Sequence record: PP107930.1
DNA length: 53,383 nt
Strand: one strand, 5' to 3'
Source: Escherichia phage FXie-2024a
How positions within the stretch are numbered: the first letter of the stretch is position 1; each line of letters opens with the position of its first letter. Positions 43,459 through 52,950 of this stretch are shown one piece after another. A program made the position numbers and the translations under genes. The notes beneath the pieces are model-generated. The model saw nothing but the letters and a program-made list of their open reading frames with translations, searched no databases and had not been told where the DNA came from.

Positions 43459-43697
43459 CGGAAGTTATTACCCTGTGGGTTGATGGTTAATTTAAAAGAA
43501 ACACGCTCTTTATTGATTGATGTGCTACCTTCAACGGTTGCTTCAAACAATACTGCGGTTGCTTTCCCTACACGCTCCAAATATTTTACAACTCGGTCGT
43601 GTATTACTGACCAATGGCGGTATTCGCAATTGGATTCGAGTAAGTATGGTACTCCATCAATGGTAAATTCGGCTGACGTCATTTTCTCTCCAAACAT
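43455..43697 (-). CDS. Hypothetical protein
   Basis: 80 aa; 4-nt overlap with the downstream gene. Confidence 0.4.
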   Translation of the reverse strand: MFGEKMTSAEFTIDGVPYLLESNCEYRHWSVIHDRVVKYLERVGKATAVLFEATVEGSTSINKERVSFKLTINPQGNNFR

Positions 43698-44020
43698 CTT
43701 AAACTATGTTGAGGCTGGTGGGCCTTATAGAAGTCATAATCGCGATAAATTTGCAGGAATAGCGAGCCATGATGGTCCATACCCATAACTGCAAGTTTGC
43801 TATTGACTATGTTGAATAGGTGGATGGTGTTTGAATCTCCACTTTCCGGAACTTCAACCCAAGTACCTGGCTCAAATGTGATTGATGCTACAATAGGCCT
43901 GTTTTCAAACTGGTCTAAAGTTACATCAAAGCCGTCACAACCAAATTTAACCTGTTTGGCTTCAGATTTAAAGGTTAAGACGCCGAAAAAGACAACTAAG
44001 AAGATATAAAACGTTTTCAT
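43679..44020 (-). CDS. Secreted or periplasmic small protein
   Basis: 113 aa; N-terminal signal-like MKTFYIFLVVFFGVLTFKSEA. Confidence 0.45.
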   Translation of the reverse strand: MKTFYIFLVVFFGVLTFKSEAKQVKFGCDGFDVTLDQFENRPIVASITFEPGTWVEVPESGDSNTIHLFNIVNSKLAVMGMDHHGSLFLQIYRDYDFYKAHQPQHSLRCLERK

Positions 44021-44250
44021 TTAAACCTCAAGCAATTAATAATTAATCGAGGCCACTCGAAGTGGAATGACCTCTGTTAATTACTGCTGGTTATTTTGCA
44101 TAACACACTGCGCACTTTCAACAACAAGTTTGCCATTTGCTTTTATGTTGTTAATTTGTTGTACGCACTCTTGATGGGAGATGTTTGGCACAACTGCCGT
44201 AGTCAACATATCCGAATAAGTTGCTGATAATATTAACAATAGTGTATACA

Positions 44251-45168
44251 TTACAGCTTCTTAGTCAGTTCAGACGCTTTGCTGTAGGCAACTTCCATTT
44301 CGTCTCGCGTTACCTTAACAACTGTTGCCTTATCAACACGAAACGATGTTTTTGCTACGGCAATCTTGCCATCTTCTCCTGGCTCAAGCAGGATTGCTTC
44401 TAGCATTTGTTCCAGCTTTTGCAGAAGAATACGTTGTGCTTCGATTGCATTTTGAATATTTAATGTTTCCATTACTGCTTTTACCTTTCTCGAATAAGTT
44501 CCATATAATGTCAGGAGCACTTGCAAACCTTTTACACCATCATGGTCAATATTGACTTTATTGTATTTGGAGTACGGATGCTTGTACGTAGTTGTAACAG
44601 TTGCCCAATTGCCCTTATACCAAATAACATCACCAACTTCTACATCAGCACCTTTAACATCCTCTTCGTCTGAGAATGGTTTCACTGCTTCTTCATATGG
44701 AAGGAATGTTGGATTTATTTGAGTATCGAACTTCACTGTGGGAGTTTCCTGTGCTGGTGGCGTATTAACAATGTGGACTATGCGGTTGGGTGAAAAGTCA
44801 AAGTATCCTGTTACATGGGTTAATCGAACTACATTTTCAGGTATTTCCCCAAGGTCTTTAACTTCCTTTATCTCAAAGAATCTGATTCCGTAAGATAAGA
44901 TGTTTCCAGGTCGTACTTCATGCGCCAATACTGCACGGGTTGTGGTAGGCTTTGTAAAAGATTCTGTAGTGGGACGTTTTTCCAATACTCTGACTATACG
45001 GCCCAACTCAAAATTAAAGAATCCGCCAGAGTATTGTAGCTGAACTACATCACTAAGTCTGTTGATGTGTACAATCGGATACCCTCTACCATCATGAAAT
45101 ACAATGTCGCCAGTTTTAACCAAGTTGGCAGGTATTTCGACAACCTTATTGTCCATGATATTCCTCAC
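44251..45168 (-). CDS. Hypothetical protein with internal repeats
   Basis: 305 aa; repeated beta-hairpin-like segments (GDIVFHDGRGYPIVHI, NRIVHIV, GDVIWYKGNWATV). Confidence 0.45.
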   Translation of the reverse strand: MRNIMDNKVVEIPANLVKTGDIVFHDGRGYPIVHINRLSDVVQLQYSGGFFNFELGRIVRVLEKRPTTESFTKPTTTRAVLAHEVRPGNILSYGIRFFEIKEVKDLGEIPENVVRLTHVTGYFDFSPNRIVHIVNTPPAQETPTVKFDTQINPTFLPYEEAVKPFSDEEDVKGADVEVGDVIWYKGNWATVTTTYKHPYSKYNKVNIDHDGVKGLQVLLTLYGTYSRKVKAVMETLNIQNAIEAQRILLQKLEQMLEAILLEPGEDGKIAVAKTSFRVDKATVVKVTRDEMEVAYSKASELTKKL

Positions 45169-45277: not shown

Positions 45278-45655
45278 TTAAAACGGAATGTCGTCGTCGA
45301 AGTCTTTCGGCTCATTTGGGTTGTATGTAGAATTACCCTGGGATTGCTGAGCAGGAGCTTGCTGTTGCTGAGTTGGCTGCTGACGTGGCTGTTGCTGTTG
45401 AGCGGCAGCTTGAGGTTGAGCTTTGGCTTTAGCTTTCTCTTCACGCTTACGCATCATTTCGTCAACTTGTTCCTGAGTCATGATGGTGAGTGCCAACGAG
45501 GTAAATTCGGTGTTGCCAGCTTTCTTATTCCAGCCAGACACCCAATACCAGATACCTTCTACGTTAATGCGGCCACGAACGTCTGGATGATTTTCAGCTT
45601 TCTTAAAGCCATTGGAACCTAGAATACCAGTGTTTAAATCGTTAAATTGTGCCAT
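45278..45655 (-). CDS. Small SSB-like protein with E. coli SSB C-terminal tail
   Basis: 125 aa; Gln/Pro/Ala-rich linker and terminal DFDDDIPF, matching the last eight residues of E. coli SSB as recalled. Confidence 0.55.
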   Translation of the reverse strand: MAQFNDLNTGILGSNGFKKAENHPDVRGRINVEGIWYWVSGWNKKAGNTEFTSLALTIMTQEQVDEMMRKREEKAKAKAQPQAAAQQQQPRQQPTQQQQAPAQQSQGNSTYNPNEPKDFDDDIPF

Positions 45656-45729
45656 GATTAAATTCTCTTTAAGTTAATTACAGTTTAAGTTTCAGTGACA
45701 TTGCTAACCACGGAATAGCTTTGTCTCTC

Positions 45730-45747
45730 TTCAAATCCAACTAATGT
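45730..45747 (-). promoter_or_regulatory. Copy of recurrent 18-bp motif, about 75 nt upstream of the SSB-like gene
   Basis: Plus strand TTCAAATCCAACTAATGT. Confidence 0.35.
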
Positions 45748-45789
45748 TAGATTAATCATGGACACCTACAGAAGATGCCCATTGTTAAT

Positions 45790-45972
45790 TTAACAGGATT
45801 TACAATATTTGGTAAAACTCCTGCGCAATTTGCGGATTTGCTTTTTGGTTGGCTTTACTGGAAGGTGTATTACCTGACAATTGTCTAAGTATGAGTTTCC
45901 AAAAGACTCTCTAAACCACAACGTCCAACCAGCCTCACCAACGGTATTATATAAACGAGTGGATATAATCAT
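45790..45972 (-). CDS. Hypothetical small protein
   Basis: 60 aa basic ORF. Confidence 0.3.
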   Translation of the reverse strand: MIISTRLYNTVGEAGWTLWFRESFGNSYLDNCQVIHLPVKPTKKQIRKLRRSFTKYCKSC

Positions 45973-46259
45973 TACATCACCTTTGAGATAGGAATTGGGT
46001 CTATTGATGATTCAGGTTTATACCAACTAACTTCACCAGAATCTTTCACAAGTTCCCAATTATCGGAGAATGTACGATAAGATAAATTGCGGTTATCATC
46101 ATTAACGACAAAACCCAAAGGAGATTGAATATACGCACCGAGTGTACCGTTGTTACGAGGAACTCCGTCACCACGACCTGCGACGATTTTGTACTTCTTA
46201 CCGTAGGTAAAGCTGTAATTAGTTTTACCAACATAACGCAAAATTGAATTCTTGTTCAT
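45972..46259 (-). CDS. Hypothetical protein
   Basis: 95 aa early ORF. Confidence 0.4.
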   Translation of the reverse strand: MNKNSILRYVGKTNYSFTYGKKYKIVAGRGDGVPRNNGTLGAYIQSPLGFVVNDDNRNLSYRTFSDNWELVKDSGEVSWYKPESSIDPIPISKVM

Positions 46260-46489
46260 TGCTTTAATTTCTCCAAAGCGGATAATACGGAATCGCCAGA
46301 ACCACTAATTACAAGCGTTTCTCCTGGAAGATTGTAAGAGATATAAGAGAACGTCCATTTTACAATAGTTCTCTGATATGATGAACTGTATCTATCAGAC
46401 AATTCAATATCTTGTCTTGCATCGTTTAGCAAGAACTCCTGCCCATTGATGGACAATCTCTTAAACATTTCGATATAATTCTTACCCAC
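46256..46489 (-). CDS. Hypothetical protein
   Basis: 77 aa; 4-nt overlap with the downstream gene. Confidence 0.4.
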   Translation of the reverse strand: MGKNYIEMFKRLSINGQEFLLNDARQDIELSDRYSSSYQRTIVKWTFSYISYNLPGETLVISGSGDSVLSALEKLKQ

Positions 46490-46772
46490 ACTTCACCTTC
46501 TCCCATTTGGATAATCCACCTTCAAGACTGAAGATGCGGTTACAACCAGAATCATCTTTAATGACGAACTGAGTTCCTGTTAACTGGATTGGCTCAAGAG
46601 AGCCAAACAAAACTTTAGGCTTTGATAAGCTGGTGGCAAGAACAACATAGGCTTTGCTTGGGCAAATATCAAAAGCAAAGTCACGAGTATAGACTAAGTC
46701 ACCAACTTTCAAATATGCTGGCAAGATACGACCTGTGGCTGGGTCACGTTGTAAACGAGTACACTGTTTCAT
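46482..46772 (-). CDS. Hypothetical protein
   Basis: About 97 aa from MKQCTRL (ATG 46770..46772, GGAG ribosome-binding site); the annotated longer start overlaps the upstream hairpin. Confidence 0.4.
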   Translation of the reverse strand: MKQCTRLQRDPATGRILPAYLKVGDLVYTRDFAFDICPSKAYVVLATSLSKPKVLFGSLEPIQLTGTQFVIKDDSGCNRIFSLEGGLSKWEKVKCG

Positions 46773-46802
46773 AAATGCTCCAAGTTGATTAATAATATTC
46801 AG

Positions 46803-46829
46803 CAACCACTCTCATTACAAAAGTGGTTG
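46803..46829 (-). terminator. Hairpin downstream of paralog A
   Basis: CAACCACT / AGTGGTTG stem 6 nt after the stop at 46836; same element repeated at 47101..47127. Confidence 0.35.
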
Positions 46830-46835
46830 AGGAAA

Positions 46836-47072
46836 TTATTTAACTTCTTCCCACACAAACAGGAATCCAACTACAGGCACATTTTCACCAATATTCCAAT
46901 ACGGACGGCCACGCCCATTGCTTCGCATTCGATTCCCACTATTGGTTATAGTAATGTATGGCTGTAATTCACCATTTACTTCAAGGTCAATCAAATCACC
47001 CTCAAGTTCATCTCCAACCTGAACTGATTTAGAACCTATTGGTGCTTTAATACAAACAAACTTCTTTGCCAT
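46836..47072 (-). CDS. Small paralogous protein A (78 aa)
   Basis: Shares PYWNIGE...VP...W.EEVK C-terminus with the 83-aa neighbour. Confidence 0.5.
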   Translation of the reverse strand: MAKKFVCIKAPIGSKSVQVGDELEGDLIDLEVNGELQPYITITNSGNRMRSNGRGRPYWNIGENVPVVGFLFVWEEVK

Positions 47073-47100
47073 TTTTGATACTCCGATTAATAATATTCAG

Positions 47101-47127
47101 CAACCACTCTCGCTATAAGAATGGTTG
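47101..47127 (-). terminator. Hairpin downstream of paralog B
   Basis: CAACCACT / ATGGTTG stem with the same flanks as 46803..46829. Confidence 0.35.
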
Positions 47128-47133
47128 AGGAAA

Positions 47134-47385
47134 TTATTTAACTTCTTCCCAGGTCCAAATACTACCTTTTAATGGGACTTTTTCGCCAATGTTCCAATAG
47201 GGTCTGCCATTGACAGCCATTCGGTTTCCAACATCCGAAATAATTATTCGAGTGTCGATTCCGTGTTTTCGCTGTATGTTGATAAGTTCTCCTTCAATCA
47301 CATCTCCAACTTTTGGAGTATGTTCGGATGAAGAGGTTGATTTCACACATTTAAACTTTGTCATTGCAATAAACCTTGTTCGCAA
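47134..47385 (-). CDS. Small paralogous protein B (83 aa)
   Basis: Paralog of 46836..47072 (KFKCV, VGNRMAVNGRPYWNIGEKVP, WTWEEVK). Confidence 0.5.
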   Translation of the reverse strand: MRTRFIAMTKFKCVKSTSSSEHTPKVGDVIEGELINIQRKHGIDTRIIISDVGNRMAVNGRPYWNIGEKVPLKGSIWTWEEVK

Positions 47386-47588
47386 ATGTCTGCAAACTCC
47401 GCACGATGGTCACGCTGCCATGTCCAGAATGCACCATTCATCGGAACGACAGCACCTTTACGGAATGCCGGAGAAATGCTTTCAGCAGATTTGGTTACTT
47501 TAAATTCCAAAGGCGAAATAGCTTCACCTTCAATGATTAAGCCAACTGGAACGTAGTCTTTGTTGGAAGCAACACATTTAAATTTCAT
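47361..47588 (-). CDS. Small paralogous protein C (75 aa)
   Basis: KFKCV start and W.W motif suggest a distant third paralog. Confidence 0.4.
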   Translation of the reverse strand: MKFKCVASNKDYVPVGLIIEGEAISPLEFKVTKSAESISPAFRKGAVVPMNGAFWTWQRDHRAEFADICEQGLLQ

Positions 47589-47590
47589 GG

Positions 47591-47773
47591 TTATCCTCTT
47601 GGTGGAATATTTCCACTGTTATCTATAAGTTTACCGCGATAAATATTTAAACCACAATCTACACAGAATGCGTTATCCAGAACTACGGGACCATACATTC
47701 CCACAGCTTCATGAGCCACATGGTCTACATTATTGCTGCCACACTTTGGGCAAACAACATCATCCTCATTCAT
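47591..47773 (-). CDS. Zinc-ribbon protein
   Basis: 60 aa; CPKC...CVDC. Confidence 0.4.
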   Translation of the reverse strand: MNEDDVVCPKCGSNNVDHVAHEAVGMYGPVVLDNAFCVDCGLNIYRGKLIDNSGNIPPRG

Positions 47774-48038
47774 GGTATAAAACTCCTAATTCAGATTTGA
47801 GGTTAAATTCACGAAAGAAATCCATTGTTACAAAACGGATTTTACCTTCATCATCAACTACGTTACAGGAGATTTCGGAGTGGACCATACGGCCCAACTT
47901 CAAAGCAACTTCTGACAGGTTTGCTTCACCAGTGCCAGAAATTACTTCATAGATTTTATATGGAGTAAAGCCGCTTAAAGAGTTATTACGGCTTGGGACA
48001 ATCATCATTCCGGTCTTAGTAGCCATAATAACTCCCAA
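47766..48038 (-). CDS. Hypothetical protein
   Basis: 90 aa early ORF. Confidence 0.4.
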   Translation of the reverse strand: MGVIMATKTGMMIVPSRNNSLSGFTPYKIYEVISGTGEANLSEVALKLGRMVHSEISCNVVDDEGKIRFVTMDFFREFNLKSELGVLYHE

Positions 48039-48041
48039 TTG

Positions 48042-48338
48042 TTATTTGGTTGGAGGTGTTAGCCTTTCGATTTCTTCAAGTGCATCTGCAAGCCGTTGTT
48101 GCAAATTGTTTCGGTCTTCTTGCAGAGCATCGTAAGATTTCTGGAACTCAATCAACACGTCTGCTCGACGGTCTGATTCAGTTTGTAAGTCATACACTTG
48201 CCTTTCAAGTACATTGATGTGCTCACCAGCCAAAGCCAGAATTGCAACATCAACACGCATTGAGGTGAGAATGTCGGGATTGCTTGGAATCGAATTCTTA
48301 GCAACGTTCGTTACATCAAGGAATTTCTGAATTGACAT
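48042..48338 (-). CDS. Hypothetical coiled-coil protein
   Basis: 98 aa; coiled-coil-like C-terminal half. Confidence 0.4.
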   Translation of the reverse strand: MSIQKFLDVTNVAKNSIPSNPDILTSMRVDVAILALAGEHINVLERQVYDLQTESDRRADVLIEFQKSYDALQEDRNNLQQRLADALEEIERLTPPTK

Positions 48339-48433
48339 TGAATTACCTTATTAAAAGATTAAGAAGCTGCCCACAACGAGCAGCACCAGAGGGAACATCA
48401 GAATACAGAATACGAGCTTCTTTACAATATCCA

Positions 48434-48610
48434 TTATTTCACCAGGAAGTAGAGAACAATAGCAACACCAACACATGCAATGATTGTTGGCATATAATTA
48501 TCAATTTTACGATATTGACGTTCGACTGGCTTCTTGCCTTTGATGGCATCCATCAGTTCTTGATGATTAATTTGCTGCATGAATGTGTTGAATTGCTGGT
48601 CATTCATCAT
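48434..48610 (-). CDS. Small tail-anchored membrane protein
   Basis: About 58 aa from MMNDQQ; C-terminal TM helix IIACVGVAIVLYFLV; ATGA-type overlap with the upstream ORF. Confidence 0.4.
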   Translation of the reverse strand: MMNDQQFNTFMQQINHQELMDAIKGKKPVERQYRKIDNYMPTIIACVGVAIVLYFLVK

Positions 48611-48789
48611 TTGTTCCTTAACTTTACATTCTTCCCAACAAGTGCACAATCTTTAAGCCATCGTGTTTTTAGACTTGCTGGGAACCAAGTTTTAAATTCT
48701 TCGGAGTAAACCTTTGTGAAATGGAACTCTGGTGTGGTCAGTATGAGCATCCCACCACCAGTTCTTAGTAGCAGATTCTCATAACTCAC
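48607..48789 (-). CDS. Hypothetical small protein
   Basis: 60 aa; stop overlaps the next start. Confidence 0.3.
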   Translation of the reverse strand: MSYENLLLRTGGGMLILTTPEFHFTKVYSEEFKTWFPASLKTRWLKDCALVGKNVKLRNK

Positions 48790-48950
48790 TTAATACTCCA
48801 AATATCCATAAATTGATTTAATGCGTCTTGCCACTTCACGAGCAGGCATACGTGGATTGGCCTCTTTAGCCATTTTCTTCAAACGTTTGTTTGAGCCACC
48901 GTAGGCAACAGCGTAAACACAGGATTTAAAAGATTTGAAATGAGATAGTT

Positions 48951-49139
48951 TCATTTTGCTTCCAGAATTTGATTTAATCCACTGAACACGATTTCTTCAT
49001 GTTCGTCAGTTGTACATGCGTTGATGTACTCAAAGTCATAGCCAACAAACTTCTCCGCCCACTCCTGTAAACGAAGTAAAGAATTGAAGTATAACCTTTG
49101 CTCTACACCATTTAATTTGAAGAAGACGATGAAGTCCAT
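48951..49139 (-). CDS. Hypothetical small protein
   Basis: 62 aa early ORF. Confidence 0.35.
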   Translation of the reverse strand: MDFIVFFKLNGVEQRLYFNSLLRLQEWAEKFVGYDFEYINACTTDEHEEIVFSGLNQILEAK

Positions 49140-49140
49140 A

Positions 49141-49383
49141 TTAACCTCTTACTTTCAGGAAATCTGGATGTGCGGCAGTTGCCACAACTTTGTGATGTTT
49201 GTCATTCTGGATTGCTTGCCAAACATATTCAGGATATGCGGCATTATTCCACACCAGCTTGTTTTCGTAAATTGATGTATAAGATATTAAGTCTGCCAAC
49301 ATTATTGCTCTGGTTTCAGTATTAACCAAAGCATGAGAAACAACACCATCACGATTGATGTATTGATACAGTGCATAATTCAT
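49141..49383 (-). CDS. Hypothetical protein
   Basis: 80 aa early ORF. Confidence 0.4.
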   Translation of the reverse strand: MNYALYQYINRDGVVSHALVNTETRAIMLADLISYTSIYENKLVWNNAAYPEYVWQAIQNDKHHKVVATAAHPDFLKVRG

Positions 49384-49632
49384 TTAGAATCCCTCGTTAT
49401 ACCCAGCAGTGTTACGAAGAGTCACTTCAACATCTTCGTCATCAGGAATTAATTCGACTTCAATATTGACAACAATATTGTCACTAAAAGTACATGCCTT
49501 ACTTGAATCAAAGAACTTTACAGCATTGTACTTATCTGACTCATTTACTTTAATCCACTTCACAGAACGAACAGTGAAGATTTGACCATCTTGCAGGTCT
49601 TTGAAACAAGCAGCTTTAATCACAGTATCCAT
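49384..49632 (-). CDS. First early protein after the iteron region
   Basis: About 82 aa from MDTVIK (ATG 49630..49632) with GGAG ribosome-binding site; preceded by a long hairpin leader. Confidence 0.4.
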   Translation of the reverse strand: MDTVIKAACFKDLQDGQIFTVRSVKWIKVNESDKYNAVKFFDSSKACTFSDNIVVNIEVELIPDDEDVEVTLRNTAGYNEGF

Positions 49633-49656
49633 TTTATTCTCCAAAGTTAAAGGAAA

Positions 49657-49722
49657 ACTCCCTACAGAACGATTGTGGAGGTCTTGTCTTACCTCAATCC
49701 ACCTTAAAGTTGTAGGGAGTAT
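49657..49722 (-). promoter_or_regulatory. Structured leader hairpin before the first early gene
   Basis: 10-bp inverted repeat ACTCCCTACA / TGTAGGGAGT enclosing an inner stem, followed by a U-run, a ribosome-binding site and the ATG. Confidence 0.35.
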
Positions 49723-49779
49723 GTGACACAACAAGTGCCGAAAACTACAATGATTAGCTTGGAGACATAATCTCTCTAA

Positions 49780-50650
49780 AATCTGTCACAGAATTTACAG
49801 AGATTTGGTCTTATTCACATGCAACTAATGATAAATGAACATGCTTAATTGCAACTAATTCATCTGCCAAATAGACGAATTTTGTCACAATCAAACATGC
49901 ATCATTAATTATAGGTTTACACCTATCTTGGAATGTATTTGGCACATCAAGAAGTGGCGCAATAGGTACGGAAAACCGACCATGTACAGCATAATAAAAC
50001 CAATTAAATAAAGGGTTTTATCCCAATATTGTCACAATATTTACATGCGATGATAAAGCCTTCGCTTGGCTGGAAGCCAGTATTCATGCGGGTTGCAAGA
50101 ATATTGGGTCATTGCTGATACAGCTATTACATGCGAAATTGGCACAAATACTGTTACAAAATTAACATGCCAGATTGGCAGACGATTGTATCTTCGAGGT
50201 GATTAGTCCTCTAACAATTCTGCCACATTCCAACATGCCAATTTGTAGCAATATTTACATGCCATACTGCGACGCAATTGTCACAATATTTGTTGCTCAA
50301 AATCGGGGCGGCTTCTGCGTGCAAACGAGAGGCTTAGTCCGACTTCTTCTCTTCTTTCGATTTCTGATTGAAAGAAAGAAGCATGTCCAAAAGTTCCAAT
50401 ATTACCAAAGTTATCTCCCGGCTTGTGGGTGGGCCTTTATAATAGGAGATGGAGCAATATTGTCGCAATTGAACATGCCATAGGTGAAGTACAAGTTTCG
50501 GATAGATATTCCTACTCTGTGTCATGGTTGCTGGAACTATAGGTGGCCTACCTAGGGAGTTCAATGATTGCCACATCATTACAACACTGTAACTCAAAGC
50601 TGACATGCTGAATGTTTCTAGAATGATTCAACATTACATGCGGAATATTT
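49780..50650. repeat. Iteron-like repeat cluster (candidate origin or promoter array)
   Basis: ORF-free ~0.9 kb with about 10 to 12 copies of a 18-19 bp motif near TTGTCACAATATTTACATGC (examples 49882..49900, 50029..50048, 50151..50170, 50221..50238, 50243..50262, 50460..50478). Confidence 0.55.
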
Positions 50651-50721
50651 CTCCGTATTCTTTTACTTCACATCCAACTAATGTAAGAGTTGTGTAACGA
50701 TATTGAAGACAGCTCTTAAAT

Positions 50722-50752
50722 TAATTGAAACAAGAAAAGGGAGCCGAAGCTC
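50722..50752 (-). terminator. Intrinsic terminator after the RNA polymerase operon
   Basis: Minus strand reads GGGAGCTTCGGCTCCC followed by TTTTCTTGTTTC, just after the 66-aa ORF stop at 50760. Confidence 0.5.
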
Positions 50753-50759
50753 CCAAGTA

Positions 50760-51009: not shown

Positions 51010-52950
51010 TTATTGACAGAAGTAGTAAGCGTGTTCGCTCATCAGAAGCTCTTCAGTTACGATGTTCTCGTGATACATCTGAATGCCGCCAAGTTGCTTA
51101 GACAGATTCTCGAATTGATTGTTGGTTACAAAGATTTCAACATATGCTGCACGAATAACTTCCATCATACGTGGAGCATCAGCTAAGCAGCAACGGAAAC
51201 AATCATGGATTGAAGTGAAGCCACGAAGACCAGCTTCTTTAGCTTTAACTGCAACAGTACGAGCAACAAGTGCATCAATACCTTGAATGTAGTTAACAAC
51301 GAAGGTGCGTTTAAATTCTTCCTTAGTTGGATTGGATTCACGAATGGTCCAAGGCTTGTTCTCCTGAATCTGGCCAAAGATAACACGAGTTTGGCTGTCA
51401 ACACGGATGCTGAATGCCTCACAGATTTCACGAGATGGGAAGCAAGGCTTCATTACAACCTGACCATCAGTGTGACGATATGTGATGTACTCTTTGTTGA
51501 GTTCAACACAACGGTTGTATGCAGCATCAGCAGCTTTCTCGATGAACATGTTAATCTTAGCACCCAATGCGTTATGGATTGCTTCTACACACAGTTCAGC
51601 AAATGCCTCAGCTTTCTCCATAGGAATCTGGAGAGATGCAGTCATGTATGCAATGAAGTCAGAAGAACCAGTCAATGCAGCTTTACCACCACCGTATTGA
51701 ATAGCCATATACGGAGTTTTGATAAACTTACGACCAGCTTTCGGATTCAAGAATTCATCCATGATTTCAGGAGATGGTTTCATTGAAGAACGGTCGAGCA
51801 GCTTCAACAGTTCACGAAGACTCAACTGGTATGGGTCAGATGCTTTAGTCTCAGAATCAACCAGACCTGTTGCACGAGCCATTTCCATGTTACCAGCAAT
51901 GAATGCCAGATATTGAGTACCAGAACATTTAGCATCTAAACCAAAGCCTACACGAGAATCGCACTCACCTGTAGTCTCAAACTTGAACCAATCCAGAGCC
52001 AGACGAACATAAGTGAATGGCTTAGAAGGACGTTCAGATTTGTCCATGTTCATCATGCGAGCAAGTGAACCAGCTGGATTTGATGCAACATAAGTTAATC
52101 GCTTAGCAGAAGCCCATTCACCACCAGAAATATCTTCCAGCTCTGCCATGAACATGTTGTATGCAATGGTAGTAGAACCATCTTCGTTAAACTTCTTAAC
52201 GATGTTCTCAACATTGTGAGAATACAAGCAACGAGCAAAGTCAGATGATTGTGGGTTAGGACCAGCACATGCTACATGATACAGACGACCACGGTTATCA
52301 GCAAAGTAGTCAGAGTACAGTGTATCCTGAGTCATCATTGCTACAGCATTGTTCCAAACATGGAGTTCAGTCTGGATTGCTTCTGGCATCTGCAAGCCAC
52401 CATAAGTACGCTGCTCAATCATGGACTGGATGATGCGAACCATCTCAGTCTCCACATGGTACTCAGTATCTTGCAGGAATTCGATTGCAGCTTTCAGAGT
52501 CTTGGATGGCTTAACTTTGCCACCTTTAACGAAAGGCTTGCGACGAGATTCAGTGGTAACACGCTCAGTGAATGGCACTGAGGTATCTTTGGTTGTAACC
52601 AGCTCAACCCATGCATCAGTTTGTTGGAACGACTTATCTTCGTTCATGGTGATGAAGCCAAAGTGTTTAGCCAGACCAATCAGGTTGATAGCTGGGTCAA
52701 CATAGTGCATTGCTTTCAAATCGTTGTTATAACGGTTGGCATCAGCAATAGAAGCAGAAGCCAGTTCAACCATCGAGATGGCAGGTACAACATCGTCACG
52801 AGTGAAAGACGTCATCATCTTGAAGATGGCTAACGCAGCAATAGCACAAGTCTGAGGCTGCATATAGTTCTGTTTCTCTTTGGCACGGTATACCAGAGCA
52901 GTGATAGCAGGAACAACGGATTTGATAGTTTGAGTAGAGATAGTAGTCAT
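51010..52950 (-). CDS. Single-subunit DNA-dependent RNA polymerase, compact form
   Basis: 646 aa from MTTIST (GGAG ribosome-binding site). T7-RNAP-like motifs: DNRGRLY, motif A GLDAKCSG, motif B KTPYMAIQYGGGK, motif C SIHDCF. N-terminal domain much shorter than T7 RNAP. Confidence 0.8.
   Translation of the reverse strand: MTTISTQTIKSVVPAITALVYRAKEKQNYMQPQTCAIAALAIFKMMTSFTRDDVVPAISMVELASASIADANRYNNDLKAMHYVDPAINLIGLAKHFGFITMNEDKSFQQTDAWVELVTTKDTSVPFTERVTTESRRKPFVKGGKVKPSKTLKAAIEFLQDTEYHVETEMVRIIQSMIEQRTYGGLQMPEAIQTELHVWNNAVAMMTQDTLYSDYFADNRGRLYHVACAGPNPQSSDFARCLYSHNVENIVKKFNEDGSTTIAYNMFMAELEDISGGEWASAKRLTYVASNPAGSLARMMNMDKSERPSKPFTYVRLALDWFKFETTGECDSRVGFGLDAKCSGTQYLAFIAGNMEMARATGLVDSETKASDPYQLSLRELLKLLDRSSMKPSPEIMDEFLNPKAGRKFIKTPYMAIQYGGGKAALTGSSDFIAYMTASLQIPMEKAEAFAELCVEAIHNALGAKINMFIEKAADAAYNRCVELNKEYITYRHTDGQVVMKPCFPSREICEAFSIRVDSQTRVIFGQIQENKPWTIRESNPTKEEFKRTFVVNYIQGIDALVARTVAVKAKEAGLRGFTSIHDCFRCCLADAPRMMEVIRAAYVEIFVTNNQFENLSKQLGGIQMYHENIVTEELLMSEHAYYFCQ

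What the first reader, a model, noticed from the sequence alone, without database searches (positions are those of the whole stretch)
46803..47588. Tandemly duplicated small-gene module with its hairpin
Two adjacent genes encode clearly paralogous 78-aa and 83-aa proteins, and a third 75-aa gene upstream looks distantly related. The first two are each followed 6 nt after the stop by nearly identical hairpins with identical flanks and a GGAG ribosome-binding site for the next gene. This indicates recent duplication of a gene-plus-terminator cassette, typical of fast-evolving early host-interaction genes.
Basis: seen in the sequence. Interest (0 to 1): 0.45.

Follow-up and report, generated by a model that had tools for sequence, protein, structure and literature searches.

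The report
Hairpin-bounded extra paralog gene cassette
A coliphage early operon carries three related tiny genes of unknown function; the third is an old, divergent paralog that has recently spread between related phages as a 298-base unit bounded by two copies of a conserved RNA hairpin, so it is not a recent duplication.

Summary
g76 and g78 are each followed by the same hairpin inside a 67-nt direct repeat that is 93% identical.

The 'recent duplication' reading fails. The gene bodies are about 50% identical in DNA and 47% in protein. The hairpin element is almost invariant across the whole genus Carltongylesvirus (pi 0.043, against 0.24 at third codon positions of the next gene), so its near-identity says nothing about age.

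g78 is accessory. It is absent from all 45 related phage records. It is 98.7-100% identical in DNA across metagenomic contigs whose flanking genes differ by up to about 15%, and the block of identity starts and ends at the hairpins. g76 is deleted or frameshifted in some g78 carriers. A different paralog sits at the same junction in another lineage.

The proteins are confidently predicted small beta-barrels (pLDDT 91) with a hypervariable hairpin tip and no known function.

The hairpin lacks a U-tract. Its two-tier shape resembles T7 early RNase III sites, and a hairpin with the exact T7 R1.1 upper stem lies 2.7 kb away. Its role is inferred, not shown.

The parts
47361..47588 (-). g75: the conserved first paralog (75 aa), orthologous to ST32 gp12. 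Its TGA stop overlaps the g76 ATG as ATGA.
   Evidence: ORF; phrog_18786 E=7e-33; 92-98% DNA identity among contigs; pN 0.036.
47134..47364 (-). g76: the hypervariable second paralog (76 aa from ATG), orthologous to ST32 gp13.
   Evidence: More than 35 distinct 90%-identity clusters of this slot's alleles, with conserved ends and a variable centre. AF2 pLDDT 91.4.
47085..47151 (-). Upstream copy of the 67-nt direct repeat: the last 15 sense nt and stop codon of g76, hairpin HP2 and an AU-rich tail.
   Evidence: the repeat finder family D1; alignment.
47089..47138 (-). HP2, a two-tier RNA hairpin: 9-bp AU lower stem that includes the stop codon, a 2x2 internal loop, an 11-bp upper stem (47101-47127) and a 5-nt loop.
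   Evidence: RNAfold -18.0 kcal/mol, z=-3.1; geometry scan; the TATAGCG apical allele was seen only upstream of g78.
47081..47084 (-). GGAG ribosome-binding site of g78, 8 nt before its ATG. It is the first base of the 298-nt unit.
   Evidence: The junction AATC|GGAGTATCAAAA (three or five A in some carriers) is present in every g78 carrier whose upstream side is on the contig.
46836..47072 (-). g78: the accessory third paralog (78 aa).
   Evidence: No match above 49% identity in 50,697 phage records. Identical protein on 8 contigs, plus five variants within its 90%-identity cluster (95-97% identical where aligned). 98.7-100% DNA identity across backgrounds. AF2 pLDDT 90.8.
46787..47084 (-). 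The 298-nt exchangeable unit: RBS, g78, HP1 and the AU-rich tail.
   Evidence: The repeat spacing is 298 nt. The near-identity block among contigs begins at the g76 3' end/HP2 and ends at HP1, or about 130 nt into the next gene.
46787..46853 (-). Downstream copy of the 67-nt direct repeat.
46791..46840 (-). HP1, the same two-tier hairpin (upper stem-loop 46803-46829). This allele is the one found in ST32, flopper and phiEcoM-GJ1.
   Evidence: RNAfold -18.8 kcal/mol, z=-4.2.
46482..46772 (-). gp14-like gene (96 aa, phrog_21002), the conserved right-hand neighbour. Its GGAG lies at 46778-46781.

Best explanation
The window is the genome of Escherichia phage FXie-2024a (Chaseviridae, Carltongylesvirus). 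Its early operon has a 'slot' between conserved gp12 (g75) and gp14 that holds hypervariable members of one small beta-barrel family. g78 is an old, divergent paralog. It now sits as a 298-nt unit (own RBS, gene, 3' hairpin) inserted right after the hairpin that follows gp13 (g76), so the unit is flanked by direct repeats of that hairpin element.

Because the roughly 55-67-nt element is nearly invariant across the genus, it offers homology on both sides of the unit. I infer that homologous recombination during co-infection moves g78 in and out of otherwise diverged genomes. Once g78 is present, g76 becomes dispensable and decays in some carriers.

I infer that the hairpin acts in the sense-strand mRNA as a processing or 3'-end-stabilising element (RNase III-like, or RNase E cutting in the AU tail), rather than as a canonical terminator. 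Each unit would then yield a protected mRNA.

I infer that the proteins are early host- or defence-binding factors whose variable beta2-beta3 tip is under diversifying pressure, and that extra paralogs widen the range of targets.

Shown: paralogy, the fold prediction, presence/absence polymorphism, breakpoints at the hairpins, and conservation of the element. Inferred: the recombination mechanism, the RNA function and the protein function.

The confidence of 0.6 applies to the evolutionary and architectural account. The RNA-processing role taken alone is about 0.45, and the protein role about 0.3.
For: Identity of the phage.

g78 is accessory. The megablast search found 45 related phage records. 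The 30 records matched by tblastn with g78 each hold a single gp13-type match, and none exceeds 49% identity to g78. Every related record whose locus was read has one gp13-type gene and one hairpin.

The arrangements seen are:
- 75-76-HP-gp14;
- 75-76-HP-78-HP (window, L010, L012, L014, L015, L033);
- 75-HP-78-HP, with g76 removed exactly at an AAT microhomology (L013, L032, L034, L035, L039);
- g76 frameshifted (L011);
- 75-HP-gp14 (L009).

Recent spread: g78 is 98.7-100% identical in DNA, while g76 is 85-99% and gp14 87-96% among the same contigs. The identity block is bounded by the hairpins. Hairpin alleles are shuffled on both sides of g78.

Old origin: about 50% DNA identity between the gene bodies. 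The closest relative of g78 is domain 2 of fused protein P0052, which sits in the same slot (53% identity; clade support 94/100).

Hot spot: a different paralog (P0061 type) lies between the hairpin and gp14 in L040 and L028.

Element constraint: pi is 0.043, against 0.24 at gp14 third positions and 0.43 in the gp13 3' end. Three variable pairs in the upper stem stay paired through G-U, C-G, U-G and U-A. The G-U pairs work only on the sense strand.

Not a canonical terminator.

The two-tier geometry resembles T7 sites R0.5 and R1.1. The exact upper stem of R1.1 is present at 44050-44073 and in relatives. RNase III substrates span about two helical turns, and internal loops give single cuts that leave protective 3' hairpins (PMC1540722).

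Fast evolution of the slot.
Against: - No transcript or cleavage data exist for any Chaseviridae phage.
- Covariation in the hairpin is not statistically significant: 342 of 500 shuffles reach the observed score.
- Three variants break a lower-stem pair without compensation (L035, L036/L037, L040). The 20-bp helix that RNase III would need is therefore supported only in its upper 11 bp.
- A covariance model built from the hairpin variants does not find the T7 sites, and it scores the R1.1-like hairpin at only 12 bits.
- The low diversity of the element could partly reflect repeated recombinational homogenisation rather than function.
- Ancient tandem duplication followed by differential loss cannot be fully separated from horizontal spread.
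Confidence: 0.6

Rival explanations
1. This is the first reader's model: a recent in-situ tandem duplication of gene plus terminator inside this phage. On this view the near-identical hairpins are leftovers of the young copy.
For: A 67-nt repeat at 93% identity with identical flanks, 298 nt apart. Both window copies end in AATC, whereas most single-copy relatives read AATT.
Against: The gene bodies are about 50% identical in DNA and 47% in protein. The same hairpin is near-identical in about 38 loci whatever the neighbouring gene is. HP2 and HP1 carry different population alleles (MLP1-like against ST32-like stems). AATC also occurs in single-copy genomes (BSBP01, L024, L027). g78 forms its own old clade.
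Confidence: 0.04
2. An ancient in-situ tandem duplication in the Carltongylesvirus ancestor gave gp13-HP-g78-HP. The pattern seen today would then come from repeated loss of one or the other copy by recombination between the flanking hairpin repeats. Horizontal spread of g78 would not be needed.
For: The flanking direct repeats make pop-out deletion easy. The g78-like lineage is old, and a fused tandem (P0052) occupies the same slot in another lineage.
Against: g78 is 98.7-100% identical in DNA across backgrounds whose flanking genes differ by up to about 15%, with a sharp boundary at the hairpins. Vertical descent predicts that g78 diverges in step with its flanks. None of the 30 gp13-bearing phage records retains any g78 remnant.
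Confidence: 0.2
3. The hairpin is a transcription terminator or attenuator, possibly a composite terminator/promoter like a T4-type PeSL. It would insulate each small gene and restart transcription for the next one.
For: The homologous hairpin in phage SA91KD is annotated as a rho-independent terminator by WebGeSTer/TransTermHP. [quoted passage not shown] Indels are bounded by the element.
Against: There is no U-tract: the 8 nt after the stem are CUGAAUAU. The site is not listed by the consensus terminator scan, and promoter-like hits in the region are no more frequent than in shuffles (21 against 24.3). The -35-like hexamer lies in the variable loop (TTATAG, TTATAA, TTACAA and TTATAT in other alleles). 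A strong terminator would starve at least four downstream genes that have no other conserved promoter. The element has only 1-2 copies per genome, whereas RB49 and phi1 each carry about 50 PeSLs.
Confidence: 0.22
4. The inverted repeat works at the DNA level, as a protein-binding operator, a recombination site or a cruciform. Its RNA fold would then be incidental.
For: The 3' arm and both flanks are extremely conserved, more than pairing alone would require. Recombination breakpoints cluster at the element.
Against: Every stem variant keeps pairing only if G-U is allowed, which works on the sense RNA. On the antisense strand or in DNA these positions are A-C mismatches. The invariant U23-G29 pair means the DNA palindrome is never perfect. 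No recombinase or site-specific nuclease gene is consistently adjacent.
Confidence: 0.08

Closest known systems
PeSL (promoter-early stem-loop) cassettes of T4-type phages (Arbiol et al. 2010, PMC2839356; Comeau et al. 2014, PMC4122927)
   Same: A short conserved intergenic motif that contains a stem-loop. It begins at the upstream gene's stop codon in an AT-rich stretch and ends at the SD and start codon of the next gene. It flanks small non-essential ORFs of unknown function in a plastic early region, and indels between close relatives are bounded by it. This fits homologous recombination between copies.
   Different: The phage family is different (Chaseviridae, 53 kb, with its own T7-like RNA polymerase). 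There are only 1-2 copies of this element per genome rather than about 50. There is no conserved sigma-70 promoter and no poly-G/poly-C stem. Terminator activity is untested and unlikely to be strong. The cargo is always a member of one paralogous family.
Host RNase III processing sites of the T7 early region (R0.3, R0.5, R1, R1.1, R1.3)
   Same: Intergenic, on the sense strand, between small early genes of a phage that encodes a single-subunit RNA polymerase. The hairpin is two-tiered, with about 9-bp lower and 10-11-bp upper stems split by a small internal loop and closed by a 4-6-nt loop. The 3' arm starts GAGUGG and is followed by GA(A/U)UAU. A sister hairpin in the same genome (44050-44073) has the exact T7 R1.1 upper stem.
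   Different: The internal loop here is symmetric (2x2), whereas in T7 it is asymmetric. Comparative data do not support the lower stem. A covariance model of the hairpin does not retrieve the T7 sites. Cleavage has not been tested.
Morons of lambdoid and other phages (gene plus own signals inserted between two genes)
   Same: A single accessory gene with its own RBS and a 3' hairpin, inserted between two genes that are adjacent in most relatives.
   Different: g78 has no promoter of its own and is a paralog of its neighbour. It lies in a lytic phage's early operon. The flanking sequence is a duplicated resident element rather than foreign DNA.
PHROG 18786 / 24403 (phage protein families of unknown function)
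   Same: All three window proteins match phrog_18786, and more weakly phrog_24403.
   Different: The PHROG carries no function. This work adds a confident all-beta, SH3-like model; the hypervariable beta2-beta3 tip; tandem and fused arrangements; the fusion to DUF7279; and occurrence in the early region of an N4-like phage.

Membership tests
phrog_18786 small phage protein family | Significant profile match over the full length of the protein | tested here: met
   g75 E=7e-33, g76 E=5e-20, g78 E=2e-6. A profile search of 1.84 billion representatives returns only 38 proteins, including all three types.
SH3-like small beta-barrel fold | Five-strand barrel that superposes on SH3, KOW or Tudor domains with a significant score | tested here: inconclusive
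Intrinsic (rho-independent) terminator | G+C-rich stem followed at once by a run of U (at least 5 U in 8 nt) | tested here: not met
   The tail is CUGAAUAU, with 3 U in 8 nt. The site is absent from the 12 terminator-like sites that one search lists. The stem has 5 G-C pairs among 11.
Intrinsic (rho-independent) terminator | Measured termination of transcription | not testable with these tools
   The only support is an in-silico annotation in the SA91KD record.
T4-type PeSL | Strong conserved sigma-70 promoter inside the motif | tested here: not met
   Only the HP1 allele gives TTGTAA-17-TATTAT (9/12). The -35 hexamer lies in the variable loop and degrades in other alleles.
T4-type PeSL | Many dispersed copies in hyperplastic regions | tested here: not met
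   The hairpin pattern with up to 3 mismatches occurs at two sites in 53 kb. The covariance model finds nothing else.
T4-type PeSL | Indels or replacements between close relatives are bounded by the motif | tested here: met
   g78 presence/absence, the g76 deletion and the P0061-type insertion all abut the element.
E. coli RNase III processing site (T7 early type) | About two helical turns (roughly 20-22 bp) of dsRNA, often with an internal loop at the cleavage site | tested here: inconclusive
   The predicted structure has 9 + 11 bp with a 2x2 loop, and its geometry resembles T7 R0.5 and R1.1. However, three natural variants break lower-stem pairs, and covariation is not significant.
E. coli RNase III processing site (T7 early type) | Sequence and structure similarity to known sites detectable by a model | tested here: not met
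   Model R1, built from the hairpin variants, finds no T7 site, and there is no Rfam match. The shared features are the GAGUGG start of the 3' arm and the general shape. The neighbouring hairpin at 44050-44073, which is not this one, matches R1.1 at 18 of 18 positions.
E. coli RNase III processing site (T7 early type) | Cleavage by RNase III in vivo or in vitro | not testable with these tools
   No transcript data for Chaseviridae were found. The ICTV profile says that even the promoters are unidentified.

The most novel reading that the evidence does not exclude
In Chaseviridae, mRNA-processing hairpins related to the T7 RNase III sites may double as portable homology arms. One 'processing unit' (RBS, gene, 3' hairpin) would then be the unit of horizontal exchange. 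This would allow a hypervariable family of small beta-barrel early proteins, possibly defence or host-factor binders, to be stacked, swapped and pruned at a single slot across a phage genus.
Probability: 0.2. Interest if true: 0.6.

Novelty: new variant of a known kind. Interest (0 to 1): 0.4.

Why it matters
The locus is a compact natural example of how a lytic phage gains, swaps and prunes early accessory genes. The slot has one conserved left edge and one near-invariant RNA element as its right edge. At least five kinds of content were seen in it:
- gp13 alleles,
- g78,
- a P0061-type paralog,
- a fused two-domain form,
- empty.

Three things follow if the explanation holds.
- The locus gives a handle on a protein family with no known function. 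The family is confidently folded, has a hypervariable tip, is fused to DUF7279 in some phages, and also occurs in the early region of an N4-like phage.
- The R1.1-identical hairpin and its relatives are the first concrete leads to transcript architecture in Chaseviridae, whose promoters the ICTV profile calls unidentified.
- The conserved 55-67-nt element is a ready-made landing pad for engineering extra genes into these therapeutic-candidate phages.

It is also a caution for annotation: near-identical flanks around a divergent paralog are not evidence of recent duplication.

Tried and rejected
- Pfam gave nothing for the three proteins.
- A profile search against PDB sequences found nothing meaningful.
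- Rfam at a permissive threshold over 45500-49500 gave no match.
- A covariance model from 12 hairpin variants recovered only HP1, HP2 and their antisense. It was too sequence-specific to link the hairpin to T7 sites.
- Covariation tests on 12 and then 16 variants were not significant.
- A sliding-window MFE scan of the whole genome was too noisy (232 hits). A geometry-specific scan replaced it and gave 11 hits against 2.55 in shuffles.
- Jamalludeen et al. 2008, which reports the phiEcoM-GJ1 promoters and terminators, is not held in the library.
- Literature searches for Chaseviridae transcriptomics or gene function found nothing relevant.
- The first bootstrap tree run timed out and was redone on fewer sequences.
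- I considered a sigma-70 promoter inside HP1 and rejected it as a conserved feature.
- I considered gene conversion between the two window copies to explain the shared AATC. It is not needed, because AATC also occurs in single-copy genomes.

Full report
**1. What the window is**

The 78-aa protein is recorded as a hypothetical protein of Escherichia phage FXie-2024a, and its longest contig (53,383 bp) equals the window length. DNA of 46400-48100 matches 45 phage records at 85-90.5% identity. The records whose taxonomy was read are all Chaseviridae, Cleopatravirinae, and those classified to genus are Carltongylesvirus (ST32, flopper, MLP1, SA91KD, the Yersinia PYps phages and others).

The genes of interest are on the minus strand. 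They lie downstream of the single-subunit RNA polymerase gene (51010-52950, PF00940), inside a run of about 17 small genes.

**2. Check of the observation**

- The three ORFs are g75 (47361-47588), g76 (47134-47364 from ATG; 83 aa only if the upstream TTG at 47385 is used) and g78 (46836-47072).
- g75 and g76 overlap as ATGA, and relatives annotate the 76-aa form.
- g78 against g76 is 47% identical (E=4e-23). g75 against g76 is 32% identical (E=4e-9).
- All three match phrog_18786.
- A 67-nt direct repeat (46787-46853 and 47085-47151) is 93% identical.
- The hairpin pattern occurs only at these two sites, with 0.02 expected by chance.
- Each stem begins 6 nt after its TAA, and a GGAG precedes each downstream ATG.

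**3. Why this is not a recent duplication**

Aligning the two 298-nt units shows about 50% identity through the coding bodies. Identity then steps abruptly to about 100% from TGGGAAGAAGTTAAATAA onward. All five differences inside the repeat fall in the loop or the apical 5' arm.

The same element follows gp13 in every relative examined, with almost the same sequence. Across 22 distinct loci, nucleotide diversity is:

| Region | pi |
|---|---|
| 68 nt from stop codon to next ATG | 0.043 |
| gp14 third codon positions | 0.24 |
| gp14 first and second positions | 0.106 |
| last 120 nt of the gp13-slot gene | 0.43 |

. So the identity of the two window hairpins reflects conservation across the genus, not youth.

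The two copies also carry different population alleles. HP1 has the ST32-type stem (CAACCACTTTT). HP2 has the MLP1-type stem (CAACCATTCTT) with a loop that was seen only upstream of g78.

**4. g78 is an accessory unit that has moved between backgrounds**

tblastn of g78 against 50,697 phage records finds one gp13-type match per genome and nothing above 49% identity. In the large protein collection, g78 forms a single tight cluster of six sequences that are at least 95% identical where aligned.

Contigs carrying g78 or its close variant P0002 show these arrangements:
- 75-76-HP-78-HP (window, L010, L012, L014, L015, L033);
- 75-HP-78-HP, with g76 excised exactly (CAAT|AATTTCC; L013, L032, L034, L035, L039);
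- g76 frameshifted to 60 aa (L011).

An IMG/VR genome has 75-HP-gp14 with the same deletion junction and no gp13 at all (L009).

Among five contigs, g78 is 98.7-100% identical in DNA. In the same contigs g76 is 85-99%, gp14 87-96% and g75 92-98% identical. A mismatch map shows that the near-identical block begins at the last 35 nt or so of g76, at HP2. It ends at HP1 in three contigs and about 130 nt into gp14 in two. Hairpin alleles are found in different combinations on both sides of g78, and the base after the tail (AATC or AATT) varies.

I read this as recent horizontal spread by homologous recombination that uses the conserved element as the homology arm. The mechanism is inferred. The incongruence and the breakpoints are shown.

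**5. Origin of g78 and the nature of the slot**

The gp13 slot is extraordinarily polymorphic. More than 35 clusters at 90% identity span 55-91% identity to g76. The ends are conserved (residues 1-26 and 60-76), and the centre is variable and prone to indels.

Pairwise Nei-Gojobori values are pN 0.195 and pS 0.524 for gp13. Its neighbours give pN 0.036-0.055 and pS 0.25-0.39. The pN/pS ratio for gp13 is 0.49 in codons 27-58, against 0.25 and 0.29 at the two ends. This shows faster and deeper divergence, but not dN/dS above 1.

A profile search of 1.84 billion representative proteins finds only 38 members. One of them, P0052, is a 147-aa fused two-domain protein in the same slot of another Carltongylesvirus-like contig. 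Its second domain is the closest relative of g78 (53% identity). In a neighbour-joining tree, g78 and P0052 domain 2 form a clade (94/100 bootstraps) that is sister to all gp13 alleles. g78 falls outside the gp13 clade in 59/100 replicates.

In yet another lineage (L040, L028), a very different family member (P0061 type) lies between the hairpin and gp14. It uses gp14's own RBS, has no second hairpin, and is fused to gp14 in L028. The junction between hairpin and gp14 has therefore received a family paralog at least twice.

**6. The proteins**

AlphaFold2 with a 45-sequence alignment gives confident all-beta models:
- g76: pLDDT 91.4, strands 2-9, 22-32, 35-44, 62-64 and 70-74.
- g78: pLDDT 90.8, with the same strand order.

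The hypervariable block (about residues 28-38) is the tip of the beta2-beta3 hairpin. It is also where the 68-aa alleles lack eight residues.

Family members also occur between homologs of N4 gp1 and gp2 in an N4-like contig (L030). In two proteins the domain is fused to DUF7279, and a free-standing DUF7279 gene lies four genes downstream in this window (45790-45972).

Function remains unknown. My working hypothesis is an early host- or defence-binding module under diversifying pressure. This is inference only.

**7. The hairpin**

On the sense RNA the element folds as follows:
- a 9-bp AU lower stem that includes the stop codon;
- a 2x2 internal loop;
- an 11-bp upper stem;
- a 5-nt loop.

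The energies are -18.8 and -18.0 kcal/mol (z = -4.2 and -3.1).

Among 16 distinct variants, 99.4% of cells pair. Three upper-stem pairs vary and always stay paired (A-U/G-U; C-G/U-G/U-A; U-G/C-G). The G-U states work only on the sense strand. However, shuffles reach the covariation score 342 times in 500. In addition, three natural variants break a lower-stem pair. Only the upper stem therefore has comparative support, and that support is modest.

There is no U-tract, the consensus scan does not list the site as terminator-like, and promoter-like hits are no more frequent than in shuffles. The SA91KD record nevertheless labels the homologous hairpin a rho-independent terminator, from software prediction.

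The shape resembles the T7 early RNase III sites when they are folded in the same way. The 3' arm starts GAGUGG, as in T7. A sister two-tier hairpin at 44038-44085 carries AGGTCATTC...GAGTGGCCT, which is identical to the upper stem of T7 R1.1. That motif is conserved in phiEcoM-GJ1 and in other relatives.

E. coli RNase III substrates span about two helical turns. Internal loops restrict cutting to one strand, which leaves a protective 3' hairpin (PMC1540722). I therefore favour an mRNA processing or stabilising role, at roughly even odds. A weak attenuator or a PeSL-like element is the main rival.

A covariance model of the hairpin did not retrieve the T7 sites, and Rfam has no match.

**8. 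Comparison with what is known, and verdict**

The closest analogue in behaviour is the PeSL cassette of T4-type phages. That is a conserved intergenic stem-loop motif which bounds small ORFans and mediates modular shuffling (PMC2839356, PMC4122927). This element fails two defining PeSL features, a conserved strong promoter and many dispersed copies. It works like a PeSL in the recombination sense but is not one. The arrangement also resembles a moron.

The finding is real and tidy but not revolutionary. It is a new variant of a known kind. Its value lies in the population-level picture of one hypervariable slot, and in the lead it gives to RNase III-type sites in Chaseviridae.

Noticed in passing
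window 44038-44085 (-), core 44050-44073: An intergenic two-tier hairpin lies between a 56-aa gene (44081-44251) and a 113-aa gene (43679-44020). Its upper stem, AGGTCATTC...GAGTGGCCT, is identical (18 of 18 positions) to the T7 RNase III site R1.1. None is expected by chance. It is conserved in phiEcoM-GJ1 (L007) and in L005 and L010-L012.
   Followed up: partly
window 45744-45799 (-), and 45730-45749 / 50667-50686 (-): A third two-tier hairpin (stop codon in an AU lower stem, a 2x2 loop, a 10-bp upper stem) follows the DUF7279 gene. It is followed at once by the motif ACATTAGTTGGAT(G/T)TGAA. That motif recurs after a classical terminator at 50739-50754, and SA91KD annotates it as a phiEcoM-GJ1-type promoter. 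A third, more divergent copy (CATTAGTTGCATGTGAA) lies in the 49633-50333 spacer. These are candidate phage-RNAP promoters in a family whose promoters the ICTV profile calls unidentified.
   Followed up: partly
window 49633-50333 (-): A stretch of about 700 nt with no ORF of 40 aa or more lies between a 90-aa and an 82-aa gene. It is full of repeated GCATGT and TGTGACA motifs and long inverted repeats (predicted MFE -236 kcal/mol). It could be a cluster of early promoters or an origin region.
   Followed up: no
window 45790-45972 (-); P0062, P0064; L030, L040: A 60-aa DUF7279 protein is encoded four genes downstream of g78. In other phages the same small beta-barrel domain is fused at its C-terminus to DUF7279 (E=4e-9 and 4e-8). 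DUF7279 genes also lie near family members in an N4-like contig and in L040. This suggests a functional link between the two unknown families.
   Followed up: partly
L013, L009, L032, L034, L035, L039 (gp12-hairpin junction): g76 (gp13) is removed by a deletion that joins CAAT of the gp12 end to AATTTCC after the gp13 stop. This gives gp12 a new TAA stop and keeps the hairpin's lower stem complete. The same junction occurs with and without g78, so either a single event has spread or the deletion recurs.
   Followed up: partly
L040 1204-1485; L028 1350-1850; L024 1066-1509: There are read-through and fusion variants in the slot. In L040 the gp13 stop is mutated (TAA to GAA), so translation runs through the hairpin to give 93 aa. 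In L028 a P0061-type paralog is fused in frame to gp14 (166 aa). In L024 two family domains are fused (147 aa).
   Followed up: partly
L011 2044-2472 and L033/L040 (142-aa gene); window 47591-47773: Some relatives carry an HNH-type endonuclease gene (142 aa, with CxxC pairs and an HH motif) just upstream of gp12. The window has a 60-aa zinc-ribbon gene in that place. A homing endonuclease next to the slot could stimulate local recombination.
   Followed up: no
search result H15: A record named Staphylococcus phage Pel53 (host S. hyicus, 53,660 bp) matches this coliphage region at 87.6% identity. This is unexpected for a Carltongylesvirus-like genome and may be a mislabelled host or a contaminant.
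   Followed up: no
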